Shown: piece after piece, positions 15,349 through 58,756 of the stretch
Layout of the letters: each line of letters starts with the position of its first letter
How positions within the stretch are numbered: position 1 is the stretch's first letter
NCBI GenBank assembly: GCA_026395055.1
Contig: JAPLZK010000002.1
Coordinates: 192,154 to 256,153, forward strand
Length of the DNA stretch: 64,000 bases
Reading direction: 5' to 3'
DNA from: Candidatus Uhrbacteria bacterium
GTDB taxonomy: Bacteria > Patescibacteriota > Patescibacteriia > UBA9934 > GWF2-40-263
Translations under genes and position numbers: made by a program
The notes under the pieces: generated by a model
Database searches by the model: none
Seen by the model: the letters and a program-made list of their open reading frames with translations, nothing else
Told to the model about the DNA's origin: nothing

Positions 15349-15374
15349 ACTCGCTTTGATTGGATGATTTTCCT

Positions 15375-15558: not shown

Positions 15559-15635
15559 TGCGGGGTAGAGCAGCCTGGCAGCTCGTCGGGCTCATAACCC
15601 GAAGGTCATTGGTTCAAATCCAATCCCCGCAACCA
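15559..15635 (+). tRNA. Initiator tRNA-fMet (CAT)
   Basis: Near-identical to the canonical bacterial initiator. Three consecutive G:C pairs 29-31:39-41 (TCGGG-CTCATAA-CCCGA), A11:U24 in the D-stem, GGTTCAAATCC T-arm, weak U1:A72 end pair, CCA encoded. Confidence 0.85.
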
Positions 15636-35613: not shown

Positions 35614-35622
35614 ATTTTTTAC

Positions 35623-38600: not shown

Positions 38601-41600
38601 TGACACGCCAAAAATTTCACACTTTGCTTACAAAGTTTCCACAAGTCCTTTTCCGGTCGCGCCAACGGTGGTGGTGAACTGTTCTGATCCAAAATTTGCA
38701 AAACCTTCTCCATCTCCTTCTCCGCTTTGGAGTAAGCAAGACAATATTTGTGTTACGTCTGCTGTTACGGCTTCCTTTAGTGTTGCCATGGATCCAAATA
38801 CACTCACTGCAACAAACATCAAAATCCAGAAATGTACTTCAGAAGCAAATGGGGTCTGTGCCAATTCGGGATGGCAAGATGTTGTGGGAGCATTTCAGGT
38901 CCCAAGTGCGGTTGCATTTCAATGGGCACCAACACCTCCGGCTGTGCTTGATGCGAATACGTTATATCAGGTCACCATCAAGGGTGCATCCGCTCCAGGT
39001 GGTGGCGTAAAATCAAAGGGAAGTGGATTAACCCTGGGTGTATCCATGGCCCAAGATTTTTCTTGGCAATTCCGTACATCTGCTTCAAATAAAGATTGTG
39101 GCATCGGAAGTGTGGCTGTTTCACCAGCAAATTATCTTGCGACCAATGCGAGTGAAACCATTGGGTATTTATCTCAACTCCTTTCGAATCAAGATAGCTG
39201 TATTGTCTTGTCGTGTAATCCGTACAAGGTTCGTTGGAATTCTGATACATGGAATGCAACATTTGCGCCAAGTCATACACTCACCGTTCCAGATGCTGCG
39301 GCAGATCCAGCACTCGGCTCTTGTTCTGCCTCTGTTTTTCCAGACGCAAACACCATTCCAGGATTCCCAGCACATATTTCTTCTGTCGTTATCAATGATG
39401 GGAAAAACCCGCATGCAACCGGTACAGGAAATTTGAACATTGCTCTCACAAATCCAAAGGTAAGTGATTATTTTCCAAATTGTTCTTCTGCCTGTGGAAA
39501 TGCCATGCCGTGGGTTACGTTTAACGTTGCCATGAATCCTTGGTATTTCAGCAATGCAGGAGCGATTCGTATTTTCAAATGCCAAAATAGTTTATGTGAT
39601 CAAAGTCAGGAAACGTTTCAAAATATTATTTCAGGAATCACGTACGATGCCGCAACTTATAAAGCGAAAATTGGATTAAACACATCACTCACACAAAATA
39701 CGTGGTACCGCATTGTCGTTTCTGGAACAATCAAATCTGGAACGCAGGCACCTCTTTCCAATTCCGGATCCAATTTTGGTACGTCAGAAAATAAATTCTT
39801 CTCCGGAGATTTTTCTTGGAGATTTAAAACAAAAGATTCCGCCATCTCTTGTGTGGTAGACCGTGTTGGGGTTTCTCCAAAAACAGCAACGCTTAACTAT
39901 GTTGGACAACGACAAGAATACAGCGCCACAGCTTTTGGGGCGCCAGATGATTGTTCTGTGACAGGCCAAGCTCTTCAATCAACAGGATGGGGTACATGGG
40001 GAGCAACAGATACTCCAAACAAAATCGGAGCCGCTTCTTATGTTTTGGGGGTGGATCATAAATTGAATGAAATTACAACGTTCATGTTGAATGAAGGTTC
40101 GCTCGCGCTTGCTTCTACGCTTCCAAAAACATGTGCAGCAAATTGTTTGTTTACCGGAAATCCAATCAACGTTGGACAAGCGGTCTGTGGAAACTCGTCT
40201 ATAGAAAACGGTGAATCCTGTGATGATGGCAACACAACAGACGGAGATGGCTGCTCGAGCATCTGTCTTAAAGAAGGAACGGTTGCGCCAACATGTGGAA
40301 ACGGTGCGATGAATACAGGAGAACAGTGTGATGACGGAAATACAATAGACGGCGATGGTTGTTCTTCAAAATGTTTATTTGAAGGAGCAACATCTATCAA
40401 ATCTGTTTGTGGAGATGGTGTTTGGGATCACACGGATAAGAATGGCGGAGAAGCATGTGATGATGGAAATACGAAAAATGGCGACGGTTGTAATTCAAAT
40501 TGTTTGCTTGAAGGTGGGGTCGCTGCCTACTCAAGCGCACGTTGTGGCGATGGTTCCGTTGGTGTTGGAGAAACGTGTGATGACGGAAACACTGTGGACG
40601 GTGATGGTTGTTCCTCTATTTGTCTGAATGAAGGAACCGTAAAGGGAACAGATGCCACAAAAGCTCAGTGTGGAAATGGTGTTACAAACGTTGGAGAAGA
40701 TTCCGGATGTGATCTTGGCGTTGGATCTGTTGCTCCAGGCTGTTCCACAAAATGTTTGAAACTGGGTTCAAGTCCAAGTTATCCTTCGCCATCTATCTGT
40801 GGAAACGGAGGGGCTTTGGAAACAGGGGAACAATGTGAAGCTGCGGCAGGTGCATCTTATGTAGCGGGTCCTTACGGAGTTGCAGAAGTTTCTCCTGGTG
40901 CTTCAGTTGAGGTGGAAAAGGATATCACAAAAGCAACATTCGGTTATGCGATTTCAAATGTTTCTGCAACAGTAGGTGGAAAAACAGGAGTGGGTGAATT
41001 TAAGTTGCTTTGTTCTTGTGAGGCAGACAACCAGTGCGGAACAAAATCTGGAGATCCAACAAAGACGCTTGGTTGCGGTGCTTCAAAGTGCTGTTATGAA
41101 CGTCCGGCTATTACCGCATCCGCACCGGGGGATAATGCAACAGGCGTTTGTCGTAATACCGCGATCTCGTTTACGTTTGATCAAGAAATGGATGCGAATA
41201 GTTTTGGGTCCGTTGATTTGGATGGAGATGGAAAAATCTCTACCGCAGAGACAGATCCAAATTTGCAGCTCGAGTTGATTACCATGAAATCCGCATTGGG
41301 AGTTGATGAAAATGTAACAGCGGCAAATTGTCCGTATTATGCTCAACCGGTCGGATTCTTACATGCAAAGAATTTGCTTGTATCTGCTTGGAATTGGATT
41401 AAGGGCTTGTTTGGTCAACCCGCGATGGCAAACGCCACAACACAATGTTACGTTCCAACAACGTATGAACAAGATCCAGCAACGCACCAAGTGTATCTCA
41501 GATATACAGAGCGTTTGTTGCCACTCGCGAAATATAAATTAACCGTGAAAACAAAAAACGGAAATGCAAAAGGAATCTTGAGTAAAAATCAGGTCAGTAT

Positions 41601-44600
41601 TTGTCTCGGAGACAATGGAACGGCTTGTCAGTCTGTTTCACAAACAAATACGTTTACGACCGGATCGGATATTTGTTTGCTGGATGTTGCGCAGACAACA
41701 GATGAGGGAATCACACCAGCACCACCTTCATATCTTTCAACAAGTCCTGGGTATTATTCAAAAACAAACGAAACGCACAATTTTAGTGTGAAGCCTCTTT
41801 CGTATCGAAAAAATACAGGTTTGTTGGAAGAAATTACATCCATTCCGAATGTGTATTCCTGGACATGGAGTTGGGGGGCTCCTGTGAAAGATACGGGAAC
41901 AAATGTTGATATTTTGGGAACGATTGCAGTAAGCACAACAAGCAACTCGCAATATAAAGCGCTTGGAAAAAATGGTTCTGGCGATGTTATTGCAACAGCA
42001 ACCATTACATCAGATGCGGTAAGCAAGGTTTCTACAACCGGATCCGGAGTTTCCGGTCATGTCTCAGAAGTTGCCTTCTTGTGTGAAAACCCATGGCCAG
42101 ATTTGGCACACGGTGTTCCGTTTGTGGAAACGGGGGCTAACACAAACTTCTCTCTCTTTTATTGTCGCGACATTGGAAAACCCGGAGAAGGAAAAATGCT
42201 TCCTGTACTTGCGCTTCCTCCAACAGACGCAACACCAGATCAAAAGATTATTAACACAAACGTGTTGAAGGAGTTAGTGTTCCATGTTGAAGGAACGAAA
42301 GACTCTATTGGGGTGCGCGTGCTCTCGAATCCAAAATATTTGTCTCCATTGGCATGGTTTCAATCTCAAGGATTTACGGGAACGCCAAAAACAACAACAC
42401 TTGATGGGTACGAAGCTGTTCAGACAGGTACAACCATTTATGCGGCCGCGGCAAATAGAAATGGTTCAAATCTCTACTCAAACATTTACGTTGTTTCATT
42501 TAACTCAGATGCAGGAAAAGATGCACAAGATATTTTTGATCTCGTGCTCAAAAATTTCCACTTGAATGCGAATGACACAGGTGCTACGGGTGTTTCACAT
42601 GTTGGTTTGTGTATGAGTGGAAACGCCTATACGCCAATTGCAGGCCCATTCGTCGCGTGTTCATGGGACGGAGATTGTTTGAATCAATGTAAACCAGAAG
42701 GAAAATGTTCTGTAACAGGAACCGTCTGTGATCCTAAACTAGGAAATACAGAATGTGCCGCAGATCCAAATGCGTTCTGTGATGCGGATAAACAAAAATT
42801 GATTCGTGACACCAAGCGTTTGACGGATATGACAAGCATGGTCGCTACGTTTGAAAAATATGGATCTTCACACGGTCATTGTTCCGTTACAAAAAATCAA
42901 ACATGTTCCACGAATGCACAGTGTTCCGGAACAGAAACGTGTGTTCCAGGTTATCCAACGGTGCAATCCGGTACATTTATTCCATCCATGAGTAACAGTA
43001 TTTGGCCTTCATGGAACAGTACGCTCGGAAATGCGGTGGGTGGAGCACTTCCAACAGATCCGCTTAACCAATACTGGGCACAATGTAAAAACGTAGGAGC
43101 AGGTTATGACTCTGCAACGTGTTGGAACAGTACACAAGGAAAATTTGTGTGTCCGGATGGTTCGCATGTGTACGGATATCAAAACCAGGGCGGAGAAGAT
43201 TACACATTATCTACAGAACTTGAATACGGTGCAGTTGCTTGGGTGAATAAGATTGATCAATCCGCATCAGACCATGCAACCATTCAAGCGTCGTATGGCT
43301 TAAACAAATCGCCAGCTGGATTGTTAGATGGATTTACGATCGCTCCACAATATTGCAACGCAACCACGTTTGGAAGTTCAACCATTTGTGGAGATGGTGT
43401 GAAGGGGGTTGGAGAAGCGTGTGAAAAAGGAGAAGTTAAATCTATTGCGTGCGCGGCAGGCGCTGGGTTTATTAACGTGACATGTAAGAGTGATTGTTCG
43501 GATTTCCAAGATGAAGCTGCGGCAAAAGCTGCGGGAGCAACCTGTAAACCATTCGCTTGTGGAAATGGAGTAAAAGATCCAGGAGAAACGTGTGATGACG
43601 GTGCATTAAACGGTACGTACGGACACTGTGGGGCAAACTGTACCCTTGCAAACGCATTTTCTTGTGGTGACGGTTACCTTGCCGGAAACGAACAGTGTGA
43701 TTGTGGAACGCCAACAAACTTCTCAACGCTTGCCGGAGCAAGCTGGGCAAAATCGAATAATCACTGCGATACCTATAATGGTGGATATTCCGCGACCGGA
43801 AAAAACTGTACGGTTGACTGCAAGCTTCCAGGACCAATGTGTAGCGACGCGATTGTGAACGACTCTTCTGAAGTTTGCGATAAGAGTACAGAAACGTATG
43901 CGGGAGCATTGAATGCGGATGGAACAAAGTGTAACGCATCATCTGGATGTGCAGTTGCCGCGTGTACAAAATCTAAAATTTGTACAGCGGGAACAAATAT
44001 TGGATCGACCTGTACAACTGACCTAAATTGTCCGACAGATGCAGCGGATGTTTGCGCATCAGATACTTGTGTGGCAAAAAAATGTTCCGCAAGTGGGAAG
44101 GCATGCGGAACAAATGCAGACTGTGTGGGTAAATGTTCCGTTAGCGGAAAGCTTTGTGGAACGACAGCAGATTGTGCGGGGAAATGTTCTGCTGAGCTAT
44201 ACGATCTAACCAGAACGCGCACGTGTCAGAATTATGGCACTTCACCCGTCTCTCAAGCGTGCTCATGGATAACGAATGCAAATAGTGGATGGGGAGACTG
44301 TGCAGGTGGTCCACAACAATGTGGAAATGGGAAAAAGGAAGGAGCAGAAGAGTGTGATGATGGAAATAGTTCAGATAATGATTCTTGTACAAACGCTTGT
44401 AAGTTGAATGTTTGCGGTGACAACAAAGTAAACGTCGGAATCGAATCCTGTGATAGTGGTGGAGCAAACGGAACCGTTTGTAACGCAGCATACGGTGCAA
44501 GCTGTAACTTCTGTAATAAATTCTGTCAGTACAAAACACAATCTGGTCCGTATTGTGGAGATGGAGTGATAAATGGAAATGAGTATTGTGATGGAAATGA

Positions 44601-45633
44601 TATTCCACGTCAGTGCTTCAAAGCGGATTCGGCAAAGTGTGCGGGTGGAACAAATGCGGCAGGTAAGGCGAGCAACGGAAAAGTTTGTGATCAATCGAAT
44701 CCATGTGGAGGTGATGCAAAGTGTGGTGATCAATCAAACCCGCAAGTTGCGGGAACCTGTTCAAAACAAGATGAAGGGAAAGTTGGTGGTCAATTAGGAT
44801 TTGAATGTTCCATCAGTCACACCTATTGCCGACCAAAAGGAACGTGTTGGGACGGAACGAATCCGGATGTTGCGAACGTTTGTACATCGAGTGCAGATTG
44901 TCCAAACGGCGGATCATGCGTGAATGATTCTGGATGTTATGGTGGGTACGGTGATTGTGTTCCAGCTCCAAAAGCATTTACTGGTTGTGATGCGGGGTAT
45001 ACGTGCCGTTTGGTTGGATCTTGTAATGGCGGAGACTCAAACGGGGAAAATGGAAAATTATGTACGACAGGAGGGCTTGGTTGGGAGTATTATCCAGATA
45101 ATAATAAAAATTATTGCGATCACACGTACACAAATGGAGTTGATACTGGTTCTGGAACCTGTCAGGTTCCGGTCTGTGGACCAAATTGCGGAAGCACCTG
45201 TCCAACCGCCTTCCAAAAAGTTTCTCTGCAAGTCCAAGGAAATGTAGCTGAGTCACAACCATCAAGTAATATTAATTTATATAGTTTCCAAAACGCTGCC
45301 GGTCAATCGCCAGATAGAGCAAGTATTCTTTTGCCTGCATGTCGCGTTGGGTCTAGTATCACAGCCGATATTGCAACCGGAAGTGCGCTTCTGAATACGG
45401 GGAATAACGCACAAATAATCGCGGCAACAAAAATAGATGCCAATGGAAAATATGTAAATGCTCAAACACAGACAGATATATTTGGTATCGGAAACGGAAT
45501 TAAACTGCCACTCCCAACCAAGTTTATCTGTCATGATGTTCCATTCTCTCTTCCGTTCAATGTAACACTCAATCCTCCGGCAGCATCGTCCGTTTCAATG
45601 AAGAACTTCGAGTTTACCTATTGTCCGCTTTAA
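35623..45633 (+). CDS. Giant surface protein (3336 aa): pilin-like N-module, Big/Ig-like and IPT/TIG domains, Myxococcus-type Cys-rich repeats
   Basis: Uninterrupted 10 kb ORF starting 9 nt after the previous stop. N-module matches the upstream paralog. IPT/TIG-like segments (IQSVSPDNGAVNNLVTITGSGFG; PSICSIVPSSGPIGTSVSLIGENFG) and more than 12 repeats of CG(N/D)Gx4-6GExCDDGNxxDGDGCSxxC. Confidence 0.85.
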   Translation: MNLYRLFKSISILAVLVCTGIFFVHPVFAVSPTDSNAFSSFAASAGFAAGPSVIVIIARLIRTFISFLGVIAVIIVLYGGFMYMTAGGNDERVKKAKKIILNGIIGLVIVLLSFTIAQFIVGKLVAATSEADISAYCLQNPTDPTCKKSPPFPPAVPPFTLNPPTSLIQCAAGIRNLKLVFVFSKSVKDEKGITVKQNGADVPGTFSFSGSKIMFVPDAKCDAPNDTLHCFAKDSTFHVEVDSTKVKSSNDIALTCKVVGGVNPCSFNFTTGSSVDVKPPQEVSFVDPKDGAKAILGLSKALQVKTVDDSGVASVDFFAIDGSVPINISSTPVNPTVANGLTTANFNGVWVPVGLETNAPYSVWATATDCAGNTKTSSKVSLMLRAPNCDNSAQDAAAPYGETGSCKPGEACDCGGSSTSPFYCGLCKPSACTNSAECSSGYCIAGKCQDVAVIQSVSPDNGAVNNLVTITGSGFGTVPGTIDFLGTEKENTTKSANAYQCGASVSWSPKEIVVQIPAGSIDGPLKVNIPAVGADPAQSDRTDDAVGPAMSLFDVNAIKRPGLCSVAPVAAEVNTPITLTGLSFGSTQGSSSIYLSSFEAKATNWTGTVLGATVPGVESGKYDAQVFTGDYFCLNASGVKVNPAVTCFSNDDCTKVDPAYTCGTSWCSESLKFCQNNSACGVGEGKCVDVRVGSNTKSFVATNTPSASKPVIKSIDPSRKLCYWSADQLKPLQTKQGLSDTNFNSFVDSLNGTTMGIGSLCSADTDCSKKISGDTYNGVCKEYPNTGGPGQYITIYGLGFGTAKGTVKFTDANEYYALGDVSFPDACGKDYWHDDHIIVKVPKSYSSQAGDLTNTNYNVTVSTQGNVASDPVAFHVYPQVVPGPSICSIVPSSGPIGTSVSLIGENFGLPVTNTGYNLQAVFTDNQQSKPGSWANTLVSNILVPATAKSGPVHLEFGSNSLNFTVGNCKTDSKIVCSAGQTCCANGTCSLSCDDTPKISHFAYKVSTSPFPVAPTVVVNCSDPKFAKPSPSPSPLWSKQDNICVTSAVTASFSVAMDPNTLTATNIKIQKCTSEANGVCANSGWQDVVGAFQVPSAVAFQWAPTPPAVLDANTLYQVTIKGASAPGGGVKSKGSGLTLGVSMAQDFSWQFRTSASNKDCGIGSVAVSPANYLATNASETIGYLSQLLSNQDSCIVLSCNPYKVRWNSDTWNATFAPSHTLTVPDAAADPALGSCSASVFPDANTIPGFPAHISSVVINDGKNPHATGTGNLNIALTNPKVSDYFPNCSSACGNAMPWVTFNVAMNPWYFSNAGAIRIFKCQNSLCDQSQETFQNIISGITYDAATYKAKIGLNTSLTQNTWYRIVVSGTIKSGTQAPLSNSGSNFGTSENKFFSGDFSWRFKTKDSAISCVVDRVGVSPKTATLNYVGQRQEYSATAFGAPDDCSVTGQALQSTGWGTWGATDTPNKIGAASYVLGVDHKLNEITTFMLNEGSLALASTLPKTCAANCLFTGNPINVGQAVCGNSSIENGESCDDGNTTDGDGCSSICLKEGTVAPTCGNGAMNTGEQCDDGNTIDGDGCSSKCLFEGATSIKSVCGDGVWDHTDKNGGEACDDGNTKNGDGCNSNCLLEGGVAAYSSARCGDGSVGVGETCDDGNTVDGDGCSSICLNEGTVKGTDATKAQCGNGVTNVGEDSGCDLGVGSVAPGCSTKCLKLGSSPSYPSPSICGNGGALETGEQCEAAAGASYVAGPYGVAEVSPGASVEVEKDITKATFGYAISNVSATVGGKTGVGEFKLLCSCEADNQCGTKSGDPTKTLGCGASKCCYERPAITASAPGDNATGVCRNTAISFTFDQEMDANSFGSVDLDGDGKISTAETDPNLQLELITMKSALGVDENVTAANCPYYAQPVGFLHAKNLLVSAWNWIKGLFGQPAMANATTQCYVPTTYEQDPATHQVYLRYTERLLPLAKYKLTVKTKNGNAKGILSKNQVSICLGDNGTACQSVSQTNTFTTGSDICLLDVAQTTDEGITPAPPSYLSTSPGYYSKTNETHNFSVKPLSYRKNTGLLEEITSIPNVYSWTWSWGAPVKDTGTNVDILGTIAVSTTSNSQYKALGKNGSGDVIATATITSDAVSKVSTTGSGVSGHVSEVAFLCENPWPDLAHGVPFVETGANTNFSLFYCRDIGKPGEGKMLPVLALPPTDATPDQKIINTNVLKELVFHVEGTKDSIGVRVLSNPKYLSPLAWFQSQGFTGTPKTTTLDGYEAVQTGTTIYAAAANRNGSNLYSNIYVVSFNSDAGKDAQDIFDLVLKNFHLNANDTGATGVSHVGLCMSGNAYTPIAGPFVACSWDGDCLNQCKPEGKCSVTGTVCDPKLGNTECAADPNAFCDADKQKLIRDTKRLTDMTSMVATFEKYGSSHGHCSVTKNQTCSTNAQCSGTETCVPGYPTVQSGTFIPSMSNSIWPSWNSTLGNAVGGALPTDPLNQYWAQCKNVGAGYDSATCWNSTQGKFVCPDGSHVYGYQNQGGEDYTLSTELEYGAVAWVNKIDQSASDHATIQASYGLNKSPAGLLDGFTIAPQYCNATTFGSSTICGDGVKGVGEACEKGEVKSIACAAGAGFINVTCKSDCSDFQDEAAAKAAGATCKPFACGNGVKDPGETCDDGALNGTYGHCGANCTLANAFSCGDGYLAGNEQCDCGTPTNFSTLAGASWAKSNNHCDTYNGGYSATGKNCTVDCKLPGPMCSDAIVNDSSEVCDKSTETYAGALNADGTKCNASSGCAVAACTKSKICTAGTNIGSTCTTDLNCPTDAADVCASDTCVAKKCSASGKACGTNADCVGKCSVSGKLCGTTADCAGKCSAELYDLTRTRTCQNYGTSPVSQACSWITNANSGWGDCAGGPQQCGNGKKEGAEECDDGNSSDNDSCTNACKLNVCGDNKVNVGIESCDSGGANGTVCNAAYGASCNFCNKFCQYKTQSGPYCGDGVINGNEYCDGNDIPRQCFKADSAKCAGGTNAAGKASNGKVCDQSNPCGGDAKCGDQSNPQVAGTCSKQDEGKVGGQLGFECSISHTYCRPKGTCWDGTNPDVANVCTSSADCPNGGSCVNDSGCYGGYGDCVPAPKAFTGCDAGYTCRLVGSCNGGDSNGENGKLCTTGGLGWEYYPDNNKNYCDHTYTNGVDTGSGTCQVPVCGPNCGSTCPTAFQKVSLQVQGNVAESQPSSNINLYSFQNAAGQSPDRASILLPACRVGSSITADIATGSALLNTGNNAQIIAATKIDANGKYVNAQTQTDIFGIGNGIKLPLPTKFICHDVPFSLPFNVTLNPPAASSVSMKNFEFTYCPL
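40180..40860 (+). repeat. Tandem array of ~6 degenerate ~110-120-bp coding repeats (Cys-rich CGNG...CDDGN...DGCS modules)
   Basis: Repeated tgtgga(a/g)a(c/t)gg...tgtgatga(t/c)gg(a/c)aa...ga(c/t)gg(t/c)tg(t/c)tc units read in the sequence. Confidence 0.75.
43380..44620 (+). repeat. Second, more dispersed array of the same Cys-rich module (at least 6 copies)
   Basis: CGDGVKGVGEACEKGE, CGNGVKDPGETCDDG, CGDGYLAGNEQCDCG, CGNGKKEGAEECDDGNSSDNDSC, CGDNKVNVGIESCDSG, CGDGVINGNEYCDGND. Confidence 0.7.
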
Positions 45634-45642
45634 ACGAATCGT

Positions 45643-46428
45643 ATGGATTTCGGTGATCATCCCGCACAGCCAAGACGCATCTCAAGAAAACTCGTCCTCA
45701 TTATTCTTGGGGGAATTGTTTTGGCTGGTGGGATCTTCTGGGGAGTTTTTTCCCTGATCCATCAGAATGCTCCGTTGACGACTTCAAGTTCTTCTTTATC
45801 AAACGTCTTTGGGAACTCTGCGCAAACTTCATCTGATCCGTGTGTGCAAACTTCGGACGCAAGTGTCTGTAAGATTACAAAAGCAAAAGATCTTGCAATC
45901 TCTTCCAAAAAACCTGATGCTTGTGACGTTCTCAAAGATGCAGATAAAAATGATTGTTACTGGAGTGTTGCGCGCGTAGCAAATGACGCCTCGATATGTG
46001 GAAAAATAGCTGATAAAGATATTTCCGCGCGTTGCTCGACGGAATTAAGTGCATCCGCGGCTTTTTCCGCGTCAGATGGAACGTTGTGTGATAAAATAGG
46101 GGACGTAAATGTGAAATCAAACTGTCAGAAGGTAATCACTTCAACAAAGGATCTCGTTTGCGCAAGCACAGATACAGATTGTCTGTTTACACGAGTGCTC
46201 GCAGCGGCAAATCAGGCACAAGATTCAGATGTCTGTAATGTTCTTGACCCAAAGCGTGAAGCGGATTGTAGAGCGCAGGTTCTTGTGAACGACCCAGATC
46301 ATGATGGTCTTGATTCCACCCAAGAAATCGTCTTGTATCACACAGATCCGCATAATGCAGATACGGATGGTGATGGGTACTCCGATGGTTCGGAAGTGAA
46401 TTCGGGACACGATCCTTTGAAAAAGTAA
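45643..46428 (+). CDS. Membrane-anchored Cys-rich protein with C-terminal TSP3/dockerin-like Ca-binding repeat pair
   Basis: N-terminal TM (LVLIILGGIVLAGGIFWGVF), 16 Cys in the ectodomain, C-terminus DPDHDGLDSTQEIVLYHTDPHNADTDGDGYSDGSEVNSGHDP. Confidence 0.7.
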   Translation: MDFGDHPAQPRRISRKLVLIILGGIVLAGGIFWGVFSLIHQNAPLTTSSSSLSNVFGNSAQTSSDPCVQTSDASVCKITKAKDLAISSKKPDACDVLKDADKNDCYWSVARVANDASICGKIADKDISARCSTELSASAAFSASDGTLCDKIGDVNVKSNCQKVITSTKDLVCASTDTDCLFTRVLAAANQAQDSDVCNVLDPKREADCRAQVLVNDPDHDGLDSTQEIVLYHTDPHNADTDGDGYSDGSEVNSGHDPLKK

Positions 46429-46476
46429 TTATTCTACACGCCTTGCCTTTCGGCAGGCAGGTAATCGCCATTCAAT

Positions 46477-47112
46477 ATGTTTGATGAAATTTCAAAAGAA
46501 CCAGAGGATGTGTTCGCACAAACGGACGCTGCAGCGCCGCAAATGACGCCACCAACCATGAACGCACCTCAACCTACCGTTGCGCCAGCGCCTGCAATGG
46601 CCGCCGCGTCTGCTCCGGTTATCGTGTCAGCATCTGAAAAAAGACCGTTTCCATGGAAACTTGTCGTTCTTTTTGTGGCGATTGTTGTTGTTGTTGGACT
46701 CGCGTTTTTCCTTAGCATGAAAATTCTCAACTCTCGTACGCCTGTTACGCCATCCGCACCTGTTGAAACTGCACAGCCTGCGACACAGGTTCCAACTCCA
46801 GAAGTTCCCGCTGTTGCACCCACAACAACACCTGTTGATCAAACTGCGCCAGCCCCAACTCCTGTTGTCGATCAAACACTCGATTCAGATAAAGATGGTC
46901 TGACGGATGTTCGCGAAGCACAACTCGGAACCAATCCAAATAATCCAGATACAGATGGAGACGGCTTGTTTGATAAGGAAGAGGTGGATGTTTACCACAC
47001 AAATCCATTAAATCCAGATACAGACGGAGATGGATTCAAAGATGGTGATGAAGTTAAGAAAGGATATAATCCAAATGGCCCAGGAAAACTTCTTCAAATT
47101 CCTCAAAAATAA
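46477..47112 (+). CDS. Single-pass membrane protein with Pro/Thr-rich linker and two DxDxDG Ca-binding repeat pairs
   Basis: TM LVVLFVAIVVVVGLAFFL, linker PVTPSAPVETAQPATQVPTPEVPAVAPTTTP, then DSDKDGLTDVREAQLGTNPNNPDTDGDGLFDKEEVDVYHTNPLNPDTDGDGFKDGDEV. Confidence 0.7.
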   Translation: MFDEISKEPEDVFAQTDAAAPQMTPPTMNAPQPTVAPAPAMAAASAPVIVSASEKRPFPWKLVVLFVAIVVVVGLAFFLSMKILNSRTPVTPSAPVETAQPATQVPTPEVPAVAPTTTPVDQTAPAPTPVVDQTLDSDKDGLTDVREAQLGTNPNNPDTDGDGLFDKEEVDVYHTNPLNPDTDGDGFKDGDEVKKGYNPNGPGKLLQIPQK

Positions 47113-47114
47113 GT

Positions 47115-48113
47115 ATGGCGGACCAGATGCTCCAACAACCCGTGACGCAAACGTCAACGCAAAACACACCTGATCAAGTGCGTGTGTTTGCGATGCCAGC
47201 ACGTTATCGTCACGGTGCGGTTGTGAATATGGTTGAACCCGTAAAAGCATCTGCCCCAACAGCCATTGTTCAGCCACCCGTTCCGCCAAAAGTTCTCGCG
47301 CCCATTCCGTCTGCACTTCCACAAAAACAACAGCCTTCACAGACAAAAAAAGGGTTATTGGTTGCTGGAGTCATTGTTCTTATTGCTCTTGGAATTGGCG
47401 GTTATCTTTTGTGGCGTAGTGTACAAAAAAATAAAGAAGCGATTCCTGTGGAACAACCTTCGCAAACGCAAACAACTTCTGAGACTCCGGCAATAACCCC
47501 AGCCACACCCGTTACAACACCTGTGACAACAGGAACGGTTCCATCAACAAATCCATTCCCGTCCGCGGTAACGCCTGGAGTAGATACGGATTCAGACGGT
47601 CTGACGGATATTGAAGAAACAATTGTCTACGGAACCAATCCAAATTTACCCGACACAGATGGTGACGGGTTCCTAGACGGAAATGAAGTTTTTCACGGAT
47701 ATAATCCAAACGGAACAGCTCCTGGGACACTTGAACTTGCCGGACTCGCACAAATGCTGAAGATCGACGGAATTCAGATGTTGTACCCAATGAAATGGAC
47801 CGTTCTCCCCGCATCTTCAGGAACAGGATCTGTTGTTTCAACAACAACAGGTGAAAGTGTTACGGTGAGTATTCTTGCAAAAGATGCATCGCTTTCTCTT
47901 TCCGATTGGTATCAACAATCCGGAAAAGCAGGAGCTCCCTCTAGCTCGAAGAGCAGAAAAGGGTACCCAATGCTCGTGGATAAAAACCAGTTGGGTGTGT
48001 ATTTAGATCTTGGAACACAGGTGGTGAGTCTGATTTATGACACGTCCACAAAAGCAACCATAGATTATCTTCAGACATTTCAAATGATGGTGAATAGTGT
48101 AGAAAAAATATGA
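47115..48113 (+). CDS. Single-pass membrane protein with Pro/Thr-rich linker, DxDxDG repeat pair and C-terminal beta-rich domain
   Basis: TM LLVAGVIVLIALGIGGYLLW, then DTDSDGLTDIEETIVYGTNPNLPDTDGDGFLDGNEVFHGYNPNG. Paralogous to the two preceding genes. Confidence 0.7.
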   Translation: MADQMLQQPVTQTSTQNTPDQVRVFAMPARYRHGAVVNMVEPVKASAPTAIVQPPVPPKVLAPIPSALPQKQQPSQTKKGLLVAGVIVLIALGIGGYLLWRSVQKNKEAIPVEQPSQTQTTSETPAITPATPVTTPVTTGTVPSTNPFPSAVTPGVDTDSDGLTDIEETIVYGTNPNLPDTDGDGFLDGNEVFHGYNPNGTAPGTLELAGLAQMLKIDGIQMLYPMKWTVLPASSGTGSVVSTTTGESVTVSILAKDASLSLSDWYQQSGKAGAPSSSKSRKGYPMLVDKNQLGVYLDLGTQVVSLIYDTSTKATIDYLQTFQMMVNSVEKI

Positions 48114-55021: not shown

Positions 55022-55291
55022 ATGTATCGCATACATTCGCTCATTCTTCTTCTGCTCGCATCTTGCGCGGCAAACGTGATTCAGACACGTGATCGATCGG
55101 TCGTGTGTAAACGAGATGGGCGTATTGAGCTTAGCTCTGTGATTGACCCACAGGTCTACATCTTGGTTTTTACACGCGAGCATTATGAGTTGCGGCTCGT
55201 GGATTCGCACCGTGCGGTTGCAAAATATGACCAATGTTACATGGAAATTTTTCCACCACCTACGTTTGTGGAACACCCTGACACTCGATAA
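55022..55291 (+). CDS. Small putative lipoprotein
   Basis: MYRIHSLILLLLASCAAN has a lipobox-like LASC; 89 aa. Confidence 0.45.
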   Translation: MYRIHSLILLLLASCAANVIQTRDRSVVCKRDGRIELSSVIDPQVYILVFTREHYELRLVDSHRAVAKYDQCYMEIFPPPTFVEHPDTR

Positions 55292-55394
55292 CATCGAGTG
55301 TTTTTCATTGACAATCTTTCGAAAATCGACTAGGATCATCAATCCTCAGCGTTGGGGATACAGGCGCACAATTCCAACAATTGGAGGTGAATTC

Positions 55395-55916
55395 ATGCGT
55401 ACGTTCCTTTTGATCCTTTCTCTTTGCTGCCTCGCGGCGTGCGAGCAAACCATAAATGCGGACGGATCACCGCTTCCGCCTCTTGTAAAGTGCAAACCCA
55501 CGTGGGATCAGCGCGCGCTCACAAATTGGCGTCAGCGTGAGTGTACGAGTGGACCAAACAAAGACCAGTGTGTGCCCATGGGGCGCACGACAATCCTGGT
55601 CGAGTTTGTTCATGACGGCTGCCGTTCCTTCAAAGAGACGATTGACTATCAAGCTTCGCTCATTCAGGGGTATTCTCCGAATCATGCGTTCGTCTTGGTG
55701 ACCGCATCGTCAGACGCGCTCACGCGCAGTTTGTTCGATCATGGAATGTACATTGGCGCTCCGTGTCGTGCGTTCTTTTTCGACGATACTATGAAGCCAG
55801 ATCGCAAGCTTCCAAACGAAGATCAATGGTTCGTTGAGTTGTGCAAAGACGCAACGTCCGTATCTCAATTCGAGTGCGGAAGTCAGTTGGCAGACAAACG
55901 GTTGTACACGCCATGA
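55395..55916 (+). CDS. Putative lipoprotein, paralog A of a tandem pair
   Basis: MRTFLLILSLCCLAACEQ lipobox. Shares KPTW...C.PMGRTTILVEFVH(D/N)GCR...LIQGY...SDALTR.L(F/Y)D...PCR.FF..D...PNEDQ.FVELCKD.TSV..EC.SQL..K.LY.P with the next gene. AGGTG RBS. Confidence 0.6.
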   Translation: MRTFLLILSLCCLAACEQTINADGSPLPPLVKCKPTWDQRALTNWRQRECTSGPNKDQCVPMGRTTILVEFVHDGCRSFKETIDYQASLIQGYSPNHAFVLVTASSDALTRSLFDHGMYIGAPCRAFFFDDTMKPDRKLPNEDQWFVELCKDATSVSQFECGSQLADKRLYTP

Positions 55917-55936
55917 TGCGTGTAAGGGGGATGTAC

Positions 55937-56512
55937 ATGTTTCTGCGATGCGCACTCATGTTGTTCTTGCTCATTCCGTGTGCGTGCAGGCGTCCTGTTC
56001 AGGGATTGCTCTCTCATGCGCACGCGTGTGAATCGAATACGTGCCTTCCAACACCCGAGCCGCAACCTCCCCCACCGCCCGCAACGATCAAAAGCAAACC
56101 TACGTGGGCAACGCGTACGTTTAATAGTTGGTTACAGGTGACGTGTCCGCGTGACGGGAGTAAATGTTTGCCGATGGGGCGTACGACAATCCTTGTGGAG
56201 TTTGTTCACAACGGGTGTCGTGAGTTCCAACATCAGATCGACAACCAATCCGAACTGATTCAGGGATACGCCGCAGAACACAATTTCCTGATTGTCACTG
56301 CCGCTTCGGACGCACTCACACGAGCGCTGTATGATTCCGATCGTGTCTTTGAACCGCCTTGTCGTGTTTTTTTCTACAACGACCTGCCAAAAGCGGATCA
56401 GCAGATTCCAAACGAAGATCAGCAGTTCGTTGAACTGTGTAAGGACGATACGTCTGTCACAGATGGCGAATGTCGCTCGCAGCTGAACGCGAAGAAACTT
56501 TACGCACCCTAG
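55937..56512 (+). CDS. Putative lipoprotein, paralog B (tandem duplicate)
   Basis: MFLRCALMLFLLIPCAC signal, then a Pro-rich PEPQPPPPPA stretch. About 55% identical to paralog A over ~140 aa by eye. Start at 55931 or 55937. Confidence 0.6.
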   Translation: MFLRCALMLFLLIPCACRRPVQGLLSHAHACESNTCLPTPEPQPPPPPATIKSKPTWATRTFNSWLQVTCPRDGSKCLPMGRTTILVEFVHNGCREFQHQIDNQSELIQGYAAEHNFLIVTAASDALTRALYDSDRVFEPPCRVFFYNDLPKADQQIPNEDQQFVELCKDDTSVTDGECRSQLNAKKLYAP

Positions 56513-56542
56513 CCGCCTTTACAAAGAGGCGGTTTTTTTGTT
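56513..56542 (+). terminator. Rho-independent terminator
   Basis: gccgcc-tttacaaaga-ggcggt followed by ttttttg. Confidence 0.75.
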
Positions 56543-56590
56543 ACCGTCTACGTAGACTCTCATGACGATCTACAAAGAGGGGAGGGTGTC

Positions 56591-57232
56591 ATGGCGACGA
56601 TCATTCAGCTCTTTGTAAAGCAGCTGATTCCACCACGCATCAAGTTGTTTGATGTGCGTGATGCAACTTCGGCCGCATGGGGCAAGCATCTCGGTCAAAA
56701 ACTTCCGTTGGTTCATGTCTATCATGGAGAGTTCGGAGATTTGGCGCGAGACATGGACGCAATTGTTGTTCCAACGAACAGTGTTGGTTCTCTTGCAAAA
56801 GAATTTGTTGATTACTTCGGTGATCCAATTCTTGAACGGCGTCTTCGTTCCATTGTACGTAGTCGGTATTCTGGCAAGCTGCTCATGGGGCAGGCGGTAC
56901 TGATTGCAACCAACAGTCCGCAATTTCCGTATCTGATCTGCACGCCGTTCGTGCGTTCAGATGGCATTTGTGGCAACGAGCCTACGAATGCGTATGTCAT
57001 CATGCGTGCAATCCTGGAACTTTGGCGATACGGTCGATACAAACGTCGAGTCGTCCGTCGTCTTGTGAAATCCATTGCTGTTCCGTTTCTGGCTCCAGAG
57101 ACGGGAATGTTTCCATTCGACATGATTGCAAAGGAACAGCTGAGGGCTCTTTCAGAATTTTACACAACCTGCTCAGAGTCACAGCGCAGACACGCACACC
57201 TTTCCCTCGTGCCAGATCTTGGCAAAGCCTGA
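56591..57232 (+). CDS. Macro-domain (ADP-ribose binding/processing) protein, paralog A
   Basis: LVHVYHGEFGDLARDMDAIVVPTNSVGSLAKEF resembles the macro-domain N-terminal motif (GDIT...[11 protein letters not shown]). GGGGAGGG RBS before the ATG. Confidence 0.55.
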   Translation: MATIIQLFVKQLIPPRIKLFDVRDATSAAWGKHLGQKLPLVHVYHGEFGDLARDMDAIVVPTNSVGSLAKEFVDYFGDPILERRLRSIVRSRYSGKLLMGQAVLIATNSPQFPYLICTPFVRSDGICGNEPTNAYVIMRAILELWRYGRYKRRVVRRLVKSIAVPFLAPETGMFPFDMIAKEQLRALSEFYTTCSESQRRHAHLSLVPDLGKA

Positions 57233-57256
57233 CCCGATCTTCTCGGGTTTTTTTAT
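57233..57256 (+). terminator. Rho-independent terminator (CCCGA-TCTTCT-TCGGG + T-run)
   Basis: Hairpin immediately after the stop. Near-identical copy after paralog B. Confidence 0.75.
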
Positions 57257-57338
57257 TTTGTTCAGTACGGGTACCCTTTACGCAAAGACAACTTTTTGTT
57301 ACTGTCTTCTCGCGTTTATTCGCAACAAAGGAGATCTT

Positions 57339-58001
57339 ATGCTTCGCTCTGCTTCTGGTGTGCCAGGTTTCCCAACAATTGTTTTCTTCGATCTTCAACC
57401 GAGTCTGTGTGCCGCTTGGAGTAAGCTCCTTGCGACCGAGCAGATAGAAAACGTACGTATTCATTGTGGAAGATTTCTGGATCTTTCCGCCGATGCAATT
57501 GTGAGTCCTGCGAACAGTTATGGATTCATGGACGGCGGCATTGATCGTTCGTACTCAGATTTTTTTGGATGGGATCTTCAAAAGATTCTGCAAAAAGAAA
57601 TTGAACTGAAACATCATGGAGAGCTCCTTGTTGGGCAGGCGGAGATGATTGCTACATCAAATGCATCGTTTCCATATCTGATTGCGGCACCGACCATGCG
57701 TGTCCCAATGGTTCTGGGTCCCATAACCGTGAATCCATACCTTGCTATGCGCGCCGTGCTTCTGCTTTGGAAACACGGAATGCACAACGGAAGGAGAGTT
57801 TGCGAGTTCGTTCAATCGATCGCGGTTCCTGGGTTTGCAACCGGAATTGGTCGCGTTCCTCCGGACGTTTGCGCGCGTCAGCAATTCCAGGCTGTGCGTG
57901 AGATGCGTATCTCGCCTTCGTACCCAAACTCCTGGCATGATGCACAGACCAAGCATCAACTTCTCTACACGGATCTTACGTACGATCTTCAGCAGGACTA
58001 G
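57339..58001 (+). CDS. Macro-domain protein, paralog B (tandem duplicate)
   Basis: IHCGRFLDLSADAIVSPANSYGFMDGGIDRSYSDFFG fits the macro-domain motif better than paralog A ([22 protein letters not shown]). AAGGAG RBS 7 nt before the ATG at 57339. Confidence 0.65.
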   Translation: MLRSASGVPGFPTIVFFDLQPSLCAAWSKLLATEQIENVRIHCGRFLDLSADAIVSPANSYGFMDGGIDRSYSDFFGWDLQKILQKEIELKHHGELLVGQAEMIATSNASFPYLIAAPTMRVPMVLGPITVNPYLAMRAVLLLWKHGMHNGRRVCEFVQSIAVPGFATGIGRVPPDVCARQQFQAVREMRISPSYPNSWHDAQTKHQLLYTDLTYDLQQD

Positions 58002-58025
58002 CCCGATCTCTTCGGGTTTTTTGTT
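58002..58025 (+). terminator. Rho-independent terminator (CCCGA-TCTCT-TCGGG + T-run), duplicate of 57233-57256
   Basis: Same stem as the terminator after paralog A. Confidence 0.75.
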
Positions 58026-58083: not shown

Positions 58084-58626
58084 ATGAACAAAACACAAGT
58101 ATTTCGTACGGCGGTCGGTATTGCGGCAACAGCGTCCATGCTCATGACAGGAACAGCGTTTGCTGCTCCAAAGGACATGAAGGTTCCGGGTCGCCCAGTT
58201 ATGCATGTACAAACAAAGGGAGTATCTGAAGATCATCTCGTTGGAAAAATTGCTGCTGTAAATGGTTCGGGCTTTACGGTCACTCGTTTAGCCATGAAGA
58301 AAGATGCACCTACGACAGCTTCCTCTGTTCATACAACGGATTCCACAAAATTCATGAAAGACGGAAAAGCAGCAACACTCGCAGATGTTGCAACGGGTCA
58401 AATGGTTGTCGTCTCAGGAACAATTGATAAAGCGACGTCCGTCATGGCGGCAACAAGTGTAAAAATCACATCAGGAAAACCTATGTCAGATGTTATACTT
58501 AAGAAAGACACACTTAAGAATCCTGTCTTGAAGACAAAAATGAAACCTGGTGTCATGAAGGCAAAAGGGGATGACGTGAAAGGAAAGGGAGTAAACAAAG
58601 AAAAGACCGCTCCTGTTCAGAAGTAA
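58084..58626 (+). CDS. Hypothetical secreted protein
   Basis: Signal peptide MNKTQVFRTAVGIAATASMLMTGTAFAAP; Lys-rich; 180 aa. Confidence 0.5.
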   Translation: MNKTQVFRTAVGIAATASMLMTGTAFAAPKDMKVPGRPVMHVQTKGVSEDHLVGKIAAVNGSGFTVTRLAMKKDAPTTASSVHTTDSTKFMKDGKAATLADVATGQMVVVSGTIDKATSVMAATSVKITSGKPMSDVILKKDTLKNPVLKTKMKPGVMKAKGDDVKGKGVNKEKTAPVQK

Positions 58627-58630
58627 GATA

Positions 58631-58664
58631 AAAAACACAGCCCTATGAGGCTGTGTTTTTTTTG
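58631..58664 (+). terminator. Rho-independent terminator
   Basis: acacagcc-ctatga-ggctgtgt followed by tttttttg. Confidence 0.75.
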
Positions 58665-58678: not shown

Positions 58679-58756
58679 TGGCGGACCGGACGGGATTCGA
58701 ACCCGCGATCTTCTCCGTGACAGGGAGACGTGTTAACCGGGCTACACCACCAGTCC
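58679..58756 (-). tRNA. tRNA-Asp (GTC)
   Basis: Reverse complement GGACTGG-TG-GTGTAGCC...TCTCC-CTGTCAC-GGAGA...GCGGG-TTCGAAT-CCCGT-CCGGTCC-G-CCA; anticodon GUC. Confidence 0.85.

What the first reader, a model, noticed from the sequence alone, without database searches (positions are those of the whole stretch)
55395..58025. Back-to-back tandem duplications: two paralogous lipoproteins, then two paralogous macro-domain proteins with duplicated terminators
The two lipoprotein genes (55395-55916, 55937-56512) share a distinctive core of unknown function: PMGRTTILVEFVH[DN]GCR, SDALTR, PNEDQxFVELCKD. They are immediately followed by two macro-domain genes (56591-57232, 57339-58001). The macro genes end in near-identical terminators, CCCGATCTTCTCGGGTTTTTT and CCCGATCTCTTCGGGTTTTTT, so the duplication included the terminator.

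Macro domains remove or read ADP-ribose. Tandem arrays of small paralogs next to them resemble immunity-gene arrays of polymorphic-toxin or ADP-ribosyltransferase systems. They could alternatively be a lineage-specific ADP-ribosylation regulatory module. No toxin or ADP-ribosyltransferase gene is visible in the window.
Basis: partly seen in the sequence, partly recalled or inferred. Interest (0 to 1): 0.6.

Follow-up and report, generated by a model that had tools for sequence, protein, structure and literature searches.

The report
Duplicated lipoprotein and macro-domain gene cassettes
In a Candidatus Uhrbacteria genome, the gap between the pyruvate kinase gene and a tRNA-Asp gene holds separately transcribed cassettes: two cysteine-rich lipoproteins that probably have a thioredoxin-like fold, one intact macro-domain enzyme and one degenerate, strongly basic copy of it; this looks like ordinary gene duplication and divergence, not a toxin-immunity system.

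Summary
All four ORFs, both paralogies (57% and 37% identity) and the near-identical terminators are at the stated coordinates.

The immunity or ADP-ribosylation-module interpretation is not supported.

- **Organism and neighbourhood:** the window is a Ca. Uhrbacteria (CPR) chromosome segment of housekeeping genes. No ART, sirtuin or toxin domain appeared among the ~46 ORFs scanned against Pfam.
- **macro2:** an intact Macro2-type macrodomain, like yeast YMR087W.
- **macro1:** its in-lineage paralog (NJ bootstrap 99-100%). It lost four residues of the Gly-rich ADP-ribose loop and degraded the second loop. It went from acidic (family median pI 5.8) to basic (pI 9.2-9.8). It is still under purifying selection (dN/dS 0.10-0.17).
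- **Duplicated unit:** it seems to include a 5' element as well as the terminator. macro2 lies next to macro1 only in this genome.
- **Lipoproteins:** a tiny family with no Pfam match and six invariant cysteines in the mature domain of the core family. Fold and profile evidence points, at marginal significance, to a thioredoxin-like fold with CxxF in place of CxxC. The array holds 0, 1, 2 or 3 copies in relatives.
- **Coupling:** lipoproteins and macro1 occur without each other and have their own terminators, so no functional coupling is indicated.

Interest is modest.

The parts
55022..55291 (+). Small third lipoprotein (89 aa, MYRIHSLILLLLASC...); a separate cassette upstream of the finding
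   Evidence: ORF and lipobox read from the sequence. Homologs at 46-47% identity at the same position in L019 and L027. No Pfam hit.
55280..55302 (+). Hairpin plus T-run: terminator-like site after the small lipoprotein gene
55308..55336 (+). Sigma-70-like promoter TTGACA-17-TAGGAT for the lipo1-lipo2 operon
   Evidence: 10 of 12 consensus matches. Conserved upstream of lipo1 orthologs in L001-L006, L009/L010, L014, L016 and L017.
55395..55916 (+). lipo1: type-1 Cys-rich lipoprotein (173 aa, lipobox LAAC); probable divergent thioredoxin-like fold
55937..56512 (+). lipo2: type-2 paralog (191 aa, Pro-rich linker), 20 nt after lipo1 with no terminator between them. Identical to NCBI hypothetical protein NTX72_02185.
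56511..56549 (+). Terminator hairpin after lipo2 (56511-56534) followed by 5' element TTTTTGTTACCGTCT (56535-56549) upstream of macro1
   Evidence: Hairpin plus element are conserved upstream of macro1 in all relatives, including those without lipoproteins.
56591..57232 (+). macro1: degenerate, basic macro-fold paralog (213 aa, pI 9.7). Identical to NCBI hypothetical protein NTX72_02190.
57233..57253 (+). Terminator 1, CCCGATCTTCTCGGGTTTTTT
57293..57307 (+). Second copy of the 5' element, TTTTTGTTACTGTCT, 46 nt upstream of macro2
57339..58001 (+). macro2: intact Macro2-type (YMR087W-like) macrodomain (220 aa). NCBI annotates it as 'macro domain-containing protein'.
58002..58022 (+). Terminator 2, CCCGATCTCTTCGGGTTTTTT
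58084..58626 (+). Protein with a hydrophobic N-terminus and a DUF5666 domain (180 aa); found only in this genome at this locus
   Evidence: Pfam DUF5666, E=3.7e-7. No homolog in any related locus.
58630..58661 (.). Bidirectional hairpin between the cassettes and tRNA-Asp
   Evidence: A hairpin at the same position in all relatives.
58679..58756 (-). tRNA-Asp(GTC): conserved right-hand border of the variable interval

Best explanation
The interval between the pyruvate kinase gene and tRNA-Asp is a small variable region in one narrow clade of Ca. Uhrbacteria. It is filled with separately transcribed cassettes, and I see no indication that they form one system.

1. **lipo1-lipo2 operon.** It encodes membrane-anchored, disulfide-rich extracytoplasmic proteins. 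They most likely have a divergent thioredoxin-like fold. An invariant Cys76 sits where the nucleophilic Cys of the CxxC motif would be, but the motif reads C-x-x-F. A second invariant Cys124 follows the putative cis-Pro. I infer an envelope thiol-redox or folding-related or binding role.
2. **macro2.** It is an intact Macro2-type macrodomain. I infer that it hydrolyses a soluble ADP-ribose derivative such as ADP-ribose-1''-phosphate in the cytoplasm.
3. **macro1.** It is an old paralog of macro2 that arose within this lineage, most likely by tandem duplication of the whole unit (5' element, ORF, terminator). The upstream copy then lost the Gly-rich ADP-ribose loop, remodelled the cleft and gained about 13 net positive charges. 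It has been kept under purifying selection at this position. I infer that it no longer binds ADP-ribose in the canonical way and now binds a polyanion, probably nucleic acid.

macro2 was then lost from the locus in most relatives. The direct repeats that flank it give an easy route to deletion.

**Shown:** paralogy, motif loss, charge shift, selection, synteny and copy-number variation.
**Inferred:** the biochemical activities, the thioredoxin-type redox role, and the direction of gain or loss of macro2.
For: **Organism and context.** macro2, macro1 and lipo2 are identical to proteins of a 339-kb Ca. Uhrbacteria MAG contig. The neighbours are FtsA, FtsZ, NrdR, HtrA and PK on one side, and RluB, L20 and IF3 on the other.

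**macro2.**
- Pfam Macro 34.8 bits, above the cut-off of 22.
- 3636 homologs, at about 50-54% identity in many phyla.
- The only PDB sequence hit is yeast YMR087W (1njr). Asn59 and Asp69 align with its Asn80 and Asp90.
- YMR087W is the only studied member of the Macro2-type clade. It is an Appr-1''-p phosphatase with no de-MARylating activity (PMC6397177).

**macro1.**
- All 10 ortholog clusters have the two Uhrbacterial macro2 proteins as their top BLAST hits among 120 family members.
- NJ bootstrap for the macro1 + Uhrbacterial macro2 clade is 99%. It is 100% when the basal syntenic form from L027 is added.
- A 4-residue deletion removes DGGx. Loop 2 changes from GTGVG to APETG. The Asn of PANS is not conserved.
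- pI is 9.15-9.81 in all 10 clusters and 9.76 in L027. The median of 120 macro2-family proteins is 5.85, and none exceeds 9.
- dN/dS is 0.10-0.17.

**Duplicated unit.** Repeats are collinear in the 5' flank, the ORF and the terminator, with spacing of 745-769 nt. The flank matches are significant.

**Independence of the cassettes.** Shown by synteny in 15 or more loci and by terminators after each unit.

**Lipoproteins.**
- Only 13 clusters at 90% identity, and 3 strong plus 3 weak clusters among 1.84 billion representatives.
- The AlphaFold2 model has pLDDT 81.9 with beta-alpha-beta-alpha-beta-beta-alpha order.
- Nearly all of the listed top-50 Foldseek PDB hits for two independent models are thioredoxin-fold domains.
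- hhalign against three thioredoxins gives P=0.014. The register is Glu70=Asp26, Cys76=Cys32 and Phe79=Cys35.
Against: - **Parsimony.** macro2 is absent next to macro1 in every sampled relative (L001 group, L008, L011, L012/L013, L027). The window's macro1 is nested inside the macro1 tree. An ancestral tandem therefore needs at least 3-4 independent losses, against one gain.
- **macro2 in another context.** The only close macro2 ortholog (L007, 79% nt identity) lies elsewhere, and homology stops at the ends of the ORF.
- **Thioredoxin fold.** No Foldseek hit reaches E<=1e-3. TM-scores are 0.3-0.48. The hhalign probability is low, and HMM searches of PDB and Pfam find nothing.
- **macro1.** No structure model was made, and nucleic-acid binding rests only on charge and motif loss.
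- **Scope.** Only 64 kb of the genome could be inspected for partners.
- **Methods.** dS is saturated, so the dN/dS values are approximate. The tree is NJ, not ML.
Confidence: 0.55

Rival explanations
1. The adjacency is secondary. macro1 and macro2 are old paralogs, but macro2 (perhaps together with the DUF5666 gene) was inserted next to macro1 only in this genome's lineage, in the variable spot beside tRNA-Asp. The similar flanks would then come from recombination at, or conversion of, the terminator and 5' element, not from inheritance from the original duplication.
For: - One gain is more parsimonious than 3-4 or more losses.
- macro2 lies in an unrelated context in L007, and homology is limited to the ORF.
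- The DUF5666 gene is also unique to the window at this locus.
- The PK to tRNA-Asp interval clearly gains and loses cassettes.
Against: - It needs chance or homology-driven placement of a paralog right beside its sister gene.
- It does not by itself explain the collinear 5' element plus terminator that match macro1's flanks.
- No integrase, transposase or attachment-site-type repeats were seen.
- GC and GC3 of macro1 and macro2 are the same, 0.495/0.467 and 0.496/0.466.
Confidence: 0.25
2. One reading: the tandem small paralogs are immunity proteins, and the macro proteins are antidotes or regulators, of an ADP-ribosyltransferase or polymorphic-toxin system encoded elsewhere.
For: - Lipoprotein copy number varies from 0 to 3 between close relatives. 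The genes sit in a variable interval, and lipo GC3 (0.55-0.58) is higher than that of neighbouring genes (0.37-0.41).
- Macro domains do serve as antitoxins in DarTG-type systems (general knowledge; PMC9967889 was listed).
- One Macro2-type homolog (P0020) lies near PAAR and Imm6 genes.
Against: - No toxin, ART, sirtuin, Rhs or PAAR domain in the ~46 ORFs scanned.
- No PADLOC match.
- The lipoproteins are exported, while the macro proteins have no signal-like N-terminus.
- Lipoproteins and macro1 occur independently.
- Transcription units are separate.
- Purifying selection is strong.
- macro1 lacks the ADP-ribose loops.
- Contexts of Macro2-type homologs in other bacteria show no recurring partner.
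Confidence: 0.06
3. macro1 and macro2 act as a pair: a non-catalytic partner or sensor (macro1) that regulates or targets the active hydrolase (macro2). This would resemble the tandem reader and eraser macro domains of eukaryotic PARP9.
For: - The two are adjacent in this genome and share flanking elements that might be co-regulatory.
- There is precedent for eraser and reader macro paralogs in PARP9 (abstract of bioRxiv 10.64898/2026.08.12.744356, listed).
Against: macro1 persists alone in almost every relative, and macro2 stands alone in L007. Neither gene therefore needs the other at the locus. macro1 also lacks the loops that a reader would need.
Confidence: 0.08

Closest known systems
Macro2-type macrodomains (yeast YMR087W, PDB 1njr; Pfam PF01661 / PF14519)
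   Same: macro2 passes the Pfam Macro threshold and nearly reaches that of Macro_2 (26.0 bits against 27). Its only PDB sequence match is YMR087W. It keeps the P-x-N-S-x-G-x-x-x-G-G-x-D loop, with Asn59 and Asp69 aligned to YMR087W Asn80 and Asp90, and it keeps the second T-G-x-G loop.
   Different: It is a single-domain bacterial protein of 220 aa and lacks the C-terminal helical domain that I recall in the 284-aa yeast protein. The position I recall as YMR087W His145 aligns to Ala. No activity has been tested. macro1 shares the fold by homology only. It lacks the Gly-rich loop and is basic.
Degenerate, non-ADP-ribose-binding macro domains (coronavirus SUD-M/Mac3-like, macroH2A-type non-binders)
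   Same: Like these, macro1 keeps a macro-type sequence scaffold but has lost the canonical ADP-ribose contacts. SUD-M-like domains bind G-quadruplex nucleic acid (PMC6397177). That fits macro1's shift to pI of about 9.7.
   Different: There is no specific sequence relationship. macro1 arose independently, from a Macro2-type gene within Uhrbacteria. Nucleic-acid binding is only inferred.
Thioredoxin-fold extracytoplasmic proteins (DsbD-gamma, TlpA/ResA-like lipoproteins, PDI non-catalytic domains)
   Same: The predicted topology matches. The best Foldseek hits are the PDIr non-catalytic domain, DsbD-gamma, QSOX and ERdj5 Trx4. The VEF-x3-C segment aligns in register with thioredoxin's VDFWAEWC. 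Both groups are membrane-anchored outside the cytoplasm.
   Different: The family has CxxF instead of CxxC, plus an extra N-terminal beta-hairpin and two further disulfide-forming Cys pairs. Neither single sequences nor the family profile match any Pfam, NCBIfam or PDB sequence model. The family is confined to a few CPR lineages.
Polymorphic-toxin immunity gene arrays and DarTG-type macro antitoxins
   Same: Small paralogs in tandem whose number varies between strains, with a macro domain gene nearby.
   Different: There is no adjacent toxin and no defence-model hit. The proteins belong to different cell compartments. They occur independently of each other and evolve conservatively.

Membership tests
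Macro domain superfamily (PF01661) | Profile match above the curated threshold | tested here: met
   macro2 scores 34.8 bits against a cut-off of 22. macro1 scores only 14.8 bits, below threshold, and enters by homology to macro2 (E=3e-37) and to PHROG 2613 (7e-18).
Macro domain superfamily (PF01661) | Gly-rich loop 1 (N-x6-G-G-x-D) and loop 2 (G-x-G) that hold ADP-ribose | tested here: not met
   This result is for macro1. A 4-residue deletion removes DGGx. Loop 2 reads APETG. The Asn is replaced by S or T in orthologs. macro2 keeps both loops intact: NSYGFMDGGID and ATGIG.
Macro2-type clade (YMR087W-like Appr-1''-p phosphatases) | Closest characterised relative is YMR087W, with equivalents of its Asn80 and Asp90 | tested here: met
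   1njr is the only PDB sequence hit, E=1.7e-6. N59 aligns to N80 and D69 to D90. That these residues are catalytic is recalled from Kumaran et al. 2005, which is not held in the library.
Macro2-type clade (YMR087W-like Appr-1''-p phosphatases) | Hydrolysis of ADP-ribose-1''-phosphate and lack of de-MARylation | not testable with these tools
   This needs an enzyme assay. The property of the clade is taken from PMC6397177.
Bacterial lipoproteins | N-terminal signal peptide ending in a lipobox, [LVI][ASTVI][GAS]C | tested here: met
   lipo1 has LAAC. Cys16 is invariant in 15 family members, mostly as L-x-[AG]-C. The window's lipo2 has the atypical LIPCAC, so that copy on its own is inconclusive.
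Thioredoxin-fold superfamily | beta-alpha-beta-alpha-beta-beta-alpha core topology and structural similarity to known members | tested here: inconclusive
Thioredoxin-type thiol-disulfide oxidoreductases | CxxC active site | tested here: not met
   The motif is C76-R-S/E-F79. Only the first Cys is present. A second invariant Cys124 follows the putative cis-Pro123.
Toxin-immunity or anti-phage defence module | Adjacent toxin or effector gene (ART, Rhs, PAAR, sirtuin), or a match to known defence models | tested here: not met
   PADLOC gives no hits. Pfam scans of about 46 ORFs across the 64 kb show housekeeping and surface proteins only. The rest of the genome could not be searched.
Tandem duplication of a whole transcription unit | Collinear similarity of the 5' flank, the ORF and the 3' flank, with constant spacing | tested here: met
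   Repeats D9, D2/D10 and D3 have spacings of 758, 745/892 and 769 nt. The 5' element reached its score in 1 of 2000 shuffles, and the terminator in 0 of 2000. The age and place of the duplication remain open; see the rival explanations.

The most novel reading that the evidence does not exclude
The macro1 lineage would be a previously undescribed class of bacterial macro-fold proteins. It has given up ADP-ribose binding (Gly-loop deletion, remodelled cleft) and, through a charge reversal of about 13 units, become a nucleic-acid (RNA or tRNA) binding protein. It is fixed beside tRNA-Asp, RluB and ribosomal-protein genes. This would be a bacterial counterpart of the coronavirus SUD-M/Mac3 domains, with an evolutionary intermediate (L027) still observable. 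In parallel, the lipoproteins would be a new monothiol (CxxF plus a resolving Cys after the cis-Pro) thioredoxin-like redox family of the CPR cell envelope.
Probability: 0.2. Interest if true: 0.5.

Novelty: new variant of a known kind. Interest (0 to 1): 0.3.

Why it matters
The locus gives a clean natural example of how a macrodomain enzyme is turned into something else. The intact parent type (macro2), an intermediate (L027) and the derived form (macro1) can all be compared within one narrow bacterial clade. It also adds an uncharacterised, probably thioredoxin-like lipoprotein family to the poorly known cell envelope of CPR bacteria. Finally, it removes a false lead: there is no evidence here for a toxin-immunity or ADP-ribosylation conflict system.

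Full report
**1. What is in the sequence**

- lipo1 (55395-55916) and lipo2 (55937-56512) are 57% identical, E=4e-59, and share the quoted motifs.
- macro1 (56591-57232) and macro2 (57339-58001) are 37% identical, E=3e-37.
- Each macro gene is followed directly after its stop codon by a hairpin and T-run, CCCGATCTTCTCGGGTTTTTT and CCCGATCTCTTCGGGTTTTTT. These are the only two matches to that stem pattern in 64 kb, against 0.03 expected. None of 2000 shuffles reached their alignment score.

**2. Organism and neighbourhood**

macro2, macro1 and lipo2 are identical to proteins of a 339,370-nt contig of a Candidatus Uhrbacteria MAG (locus tags NTX72_02185/02190). NCBI calls them 'hypothetical protein' and 'macro domain-containing protein'.

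The window is ordinary chromosome. It encodes SecY, Adk, Map, RecO, two class II aaRS, ScpAB, ParAB, RelA/SpoT, TopA, DprA, Pth, HisRS, FtsA, FtsZ, NrdR, HtrA and pyruvate kinase upstream, and tRNA-Asp, RluB, L20 and IF3 downstream. About 46 ORFs were scanned against Pfam; a few larger ORFs and most small ones were not. No ADP-ribosyltransferase, sirtuin, Rhs/PAAR or other toxin domain was found. PADLOC has no match to the five proteins of the locus.

**3. The macro pair**

macro2 is a normal member of a very large family.
- It passes Pfam Macro (34.8 bits against 22) and nearly reaches Macro_2.
- It has 3636 homologs, at about 50-54% identity in Proteobacteria, Chloroflexi, Planctomycetes and others.
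- It matches PHROG 2613 (3.7e-49). Relatives occur in 32 viral contigs, almost all at 35-45% identity.
- Its only PDB sequence match is yeast YMR087W (1njr). Asn59 and Asp69 align with Asn80 and Asp90 of that protein.
- YMR087W is described as the only studied member of the 'Macro2-type' clade, an ADP-ribose-1''-phosphate phosphatase without de-MARylating activity (PMC6397177). That Asn80 and Asp90 are the proposed catalytic residues is my recollection of Kumaran et al. 2005, which I could not retrieve.
- The contexts of three homologs in other phyla share no partner gene.

macro1 is different.
- It scores below Pfam's threshold (14.8 bits). Its profile finds no macrodomain in the PDB.
- Its family has only 10 clusters, and all that carry names are Uhrbacteria. 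Only 2 of 185,579 species-level genomes carry it.
- In the alignment, the whole macro1 clade has a 4-residue deletion that removes 'DGGx' from PANSxGFMDGGxD.
- The second loop has changed from G-T-G-V-G to A-P-E-T-G. The Asn is not conserved. APTMRVPMILG is replaced by a new invariant block, TPFVRSDGxxGNEPTNAY.
- All ten clusters have pI 9.15-9.81 (net charge +5 to +10). In 120 macro2-family proteins the median pI is 5.85 and none exceeds 9.
- The gene is nevertheless under purifying selection, dN/dS 0.10-0.17 against five orthologs. dS is saturated, so these values are approximate.

**4. Origin of the macro pair**

- Every macro1 ortholog has the two Uhrbacterial macro2 proteins (P0014 from the window, and P0015 at 79%) as its top hits among 120 family members.
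- In an NJ tree the macro1 + Uhrbacterial macro2 clade has 99% bootstrap, with a long stem leading to macro1.
- A more distant relative, L027, has a 210-aa protein at the same position next to tRNA-Asp. It is equally similar to macro1 (39%) and macro2 (38%). It already has the 4-residue deletion and a pI of 9.76, but keeps a macro2-like second loop and C-terminal region. It branches at the base of macro1 (100%) and halves the stem.

macro1 is therefore an old, neofunctionalised duplicate that arose within this lineage.

In the window the two units share more than the terminator. A 15-nt element, TTTTTGTTACYGTCT, lies 56 and 46 nt upstream of the two start codons. These are its only two exact copies in the window, and 1 of 2000 shuffles reached the alignment score. 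The repeats in the 5' flank, the ORF and the 3' flank are collinear, with spacing of 745-769 nt. Both the upstream hairpin plus element and the terminator stem are conserved in all macro1 orthologs. Constraint can therefore explain why they survived while synonymous sites became saturated (third-position identity 31%).

There is evidence against a simple reading.
- macro2 is absent between macro1 and tRNA-Asp in all sampled relatives: the L001 group, L008, L011, L012/L013 and L027.
- The window's macro1 is nested within the macro1 tree.
- The only close macro2 ortholog (L007) lies in a different context, with homology confined to the ORF.

Either macro2 was lost several times, which the flanking direct repeats would make easy, or it was placed beside macro1 secondarily. 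I rate these about 0.55 and 0.25.

**5. The lipoproteins**

- The family is tiny: 13 clusters at 90% identity. Among 1.84 billion representatives it has three strong and three weak clusters.
- There are no Pfam, NCBIfam, PHROG or PADLOC hits and no viral relatives.
- The 15 core-family sequences share an N-terminal signal sequence ending in a lipobox Cys, plus six further invariant cysteines.
- Two subtypes exist: type 1 with 'VKCKPTW' and a short linker, and type 2 with 'IK[SG]KPTW' and a Pro-rich linker.
- With three distant relatives added, the AlphaFold2 model rose from pLDDT 61 to 81.9 (pTM 0.73). Its secondary-structure order fits a thioredoxin fold preceded by a beta-hairpin.
- Nearly all of the listed top-50 Foldseek PDB hits for both models are thioredoxin-fold domains: the PDIr non-catalytic domain, DsbD-gamma, QSOX, ERdj5, thioredoxins and Ost6L. 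None reaches E<=1e-3, and TM-scores are low.
This puts Glu70 on Asp26, Cys76 on Cys32 and Phe79 on Cys35.

I read this as a probable divergent thioredoxin-like fold, at about 0.65-0.7. The site would be monothiol, C-x-x-F, with a second invariant Cys124 just after the putative cis-Pro123. The function is inferred only.

**6. Are the two pairs one system?**

The evidence says no.
- **Transcription signals.** They divide the locus into units: PK with its terminator; the small lipoprotein with a terminator; a conserved TTGACA-17-TAGGAT promoter followed by lipo1-lipo2 and a terminator; macro1 with a terminator; macro2 with a terminator; DUF5666 with a bidirectional hairpin; then tRNA-Asp.
- **Relatives.** The content of the PK to tRNA-Asp interval varies:
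  - lipo1-lipo2-macro1 in the L001 group and L009/L010;
  - macro1 alone in L008 and L012/L015;
  - the small lipoprotein plus one type-2 lipoprotein, and no macro gene, in L019;
  - one type-1 lipoprotein plus macro1 on the P0007 contig;
  - three tandem lipoproteins plus the intermediate macro gene, together with five unrelated genes, in L027.
- **Compartment.** The lipoproteins are extracytoplasmic. The macro proteins have no hydrophobic signal-like N-terminus.
- **Selection.** The lipoproteins evolve under purifying selection, dN/dS 0.07-0.17.
- **Composition.** Their GC3 (0.55-0.58) is higher than that of the neighbours (0.37-0.41). That fits an accessory cassette.

**7. Comparison with known systems, and verdict**

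- macro2 is a new member of the known Macro2-type clade.
- macro1 is a new degenerate variant. Its nearest analogues in kind, not in descent, are non-binding or nucleic-acid-binding macro domains such as SUD-M.
- The lipoproteins are an undescribed family that probably belongs to the thioredoxin-fold superfamily but fails the CxxC test.
- None of the defining features of a toxin-immunity or defence module was met.

The finding is real but mostly ordinary: duplication and divergence of cassettes in a variable interval next to a tRNA gene. The degenerate basic macro paralog, with an observable intermediate, is the most interesting part. Interest 0.3; novelty 'new variant of a known kind'.

Noticed in passing
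window 55022-55291 (+); L019 4491-4727; L027 999-1265: A third, unrelated small lipoprotein gene (89 aa, lipobox LLASC, three Cys in the mature part) lies between PK and lipo1 and has its own terminator. Homologs at 46-47% identity occur at the same position in only some relatives.
   Followed up: partly
window 58084-58626 (+): A DUF5666 protein with a hydrophobic N-terminus lies between macro2 and tRNA-Asp. It has no counterpart in any related locus, so it is a second insertion specific to this lineage.
   Followed up: partly
L027 1378-4310: In one relative the same PK to tRNA-Asp interval also holds a Phage_30_3-like gene, a Trp-repressor/HTH gene, an AstE/AspA-like gene and two unknown ORFs. 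The interval acts as a small hotspot for gene gain.
   Followed up: no
L027 6303-6935: A 210-aa macro protein is intermediate between macro1 and macro2. It has the loop-1 deletion and a high pI, but its loop 2 and C-terminus are macro2-like. It is a natural intermediate of the neofunctionalisation.
   Followed up: yes
window 55332-55346: An inverted repeat, AGGATCATCAATCCT, overlaps the -10 element of the lipo1 promoter. It is conserved in the L001 group but not in L009/L010.
   Followed up: partly
window-wide, e.g. 54970, 56534, 58017: TTTTTTGTT is over-represented (15 copies against 3.8 expected). At least three copies (54970, 56534, 58017) form the tail of terminator hairpins. This may be a lineage-typical terminator tail.
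   Followed up: partly
window 6167-7501 and 8072-9385 (+): Two neighbouring class II aminoacyl-tRNA synthetase genes have the same domain layout (OB anticodon-binding domain plus tRNA-synt_2). They are presumably AspRS and AsnRS, or two AspRS-type paralogs.
   Followed up: no
window 33703-48113 (+): A run of surface-protein genes. A 636-aa and a 3336-aa protein both start with a T4SS-pilin-like segment followed by Big_5 (and, in the larger one, TIG) domains. Three proteins with bacterial TSP3 repeats follow.
   Followed up: no
window 15145-15635: A tRNA cluster with two tRNA-Met(CAT) genes on opposite strands, flanking a tRNA-Leu(CAA).
   Followed up: no
L026 205-714: A distant homolog of the lipoprotein family (P0147, E=1e-5, lipobox VAGC) is followed by a UvrD/PcrA-like helicase N-terminus (read by eye from the translation), not by a paralog or a macro gene.
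   Followed up: partly
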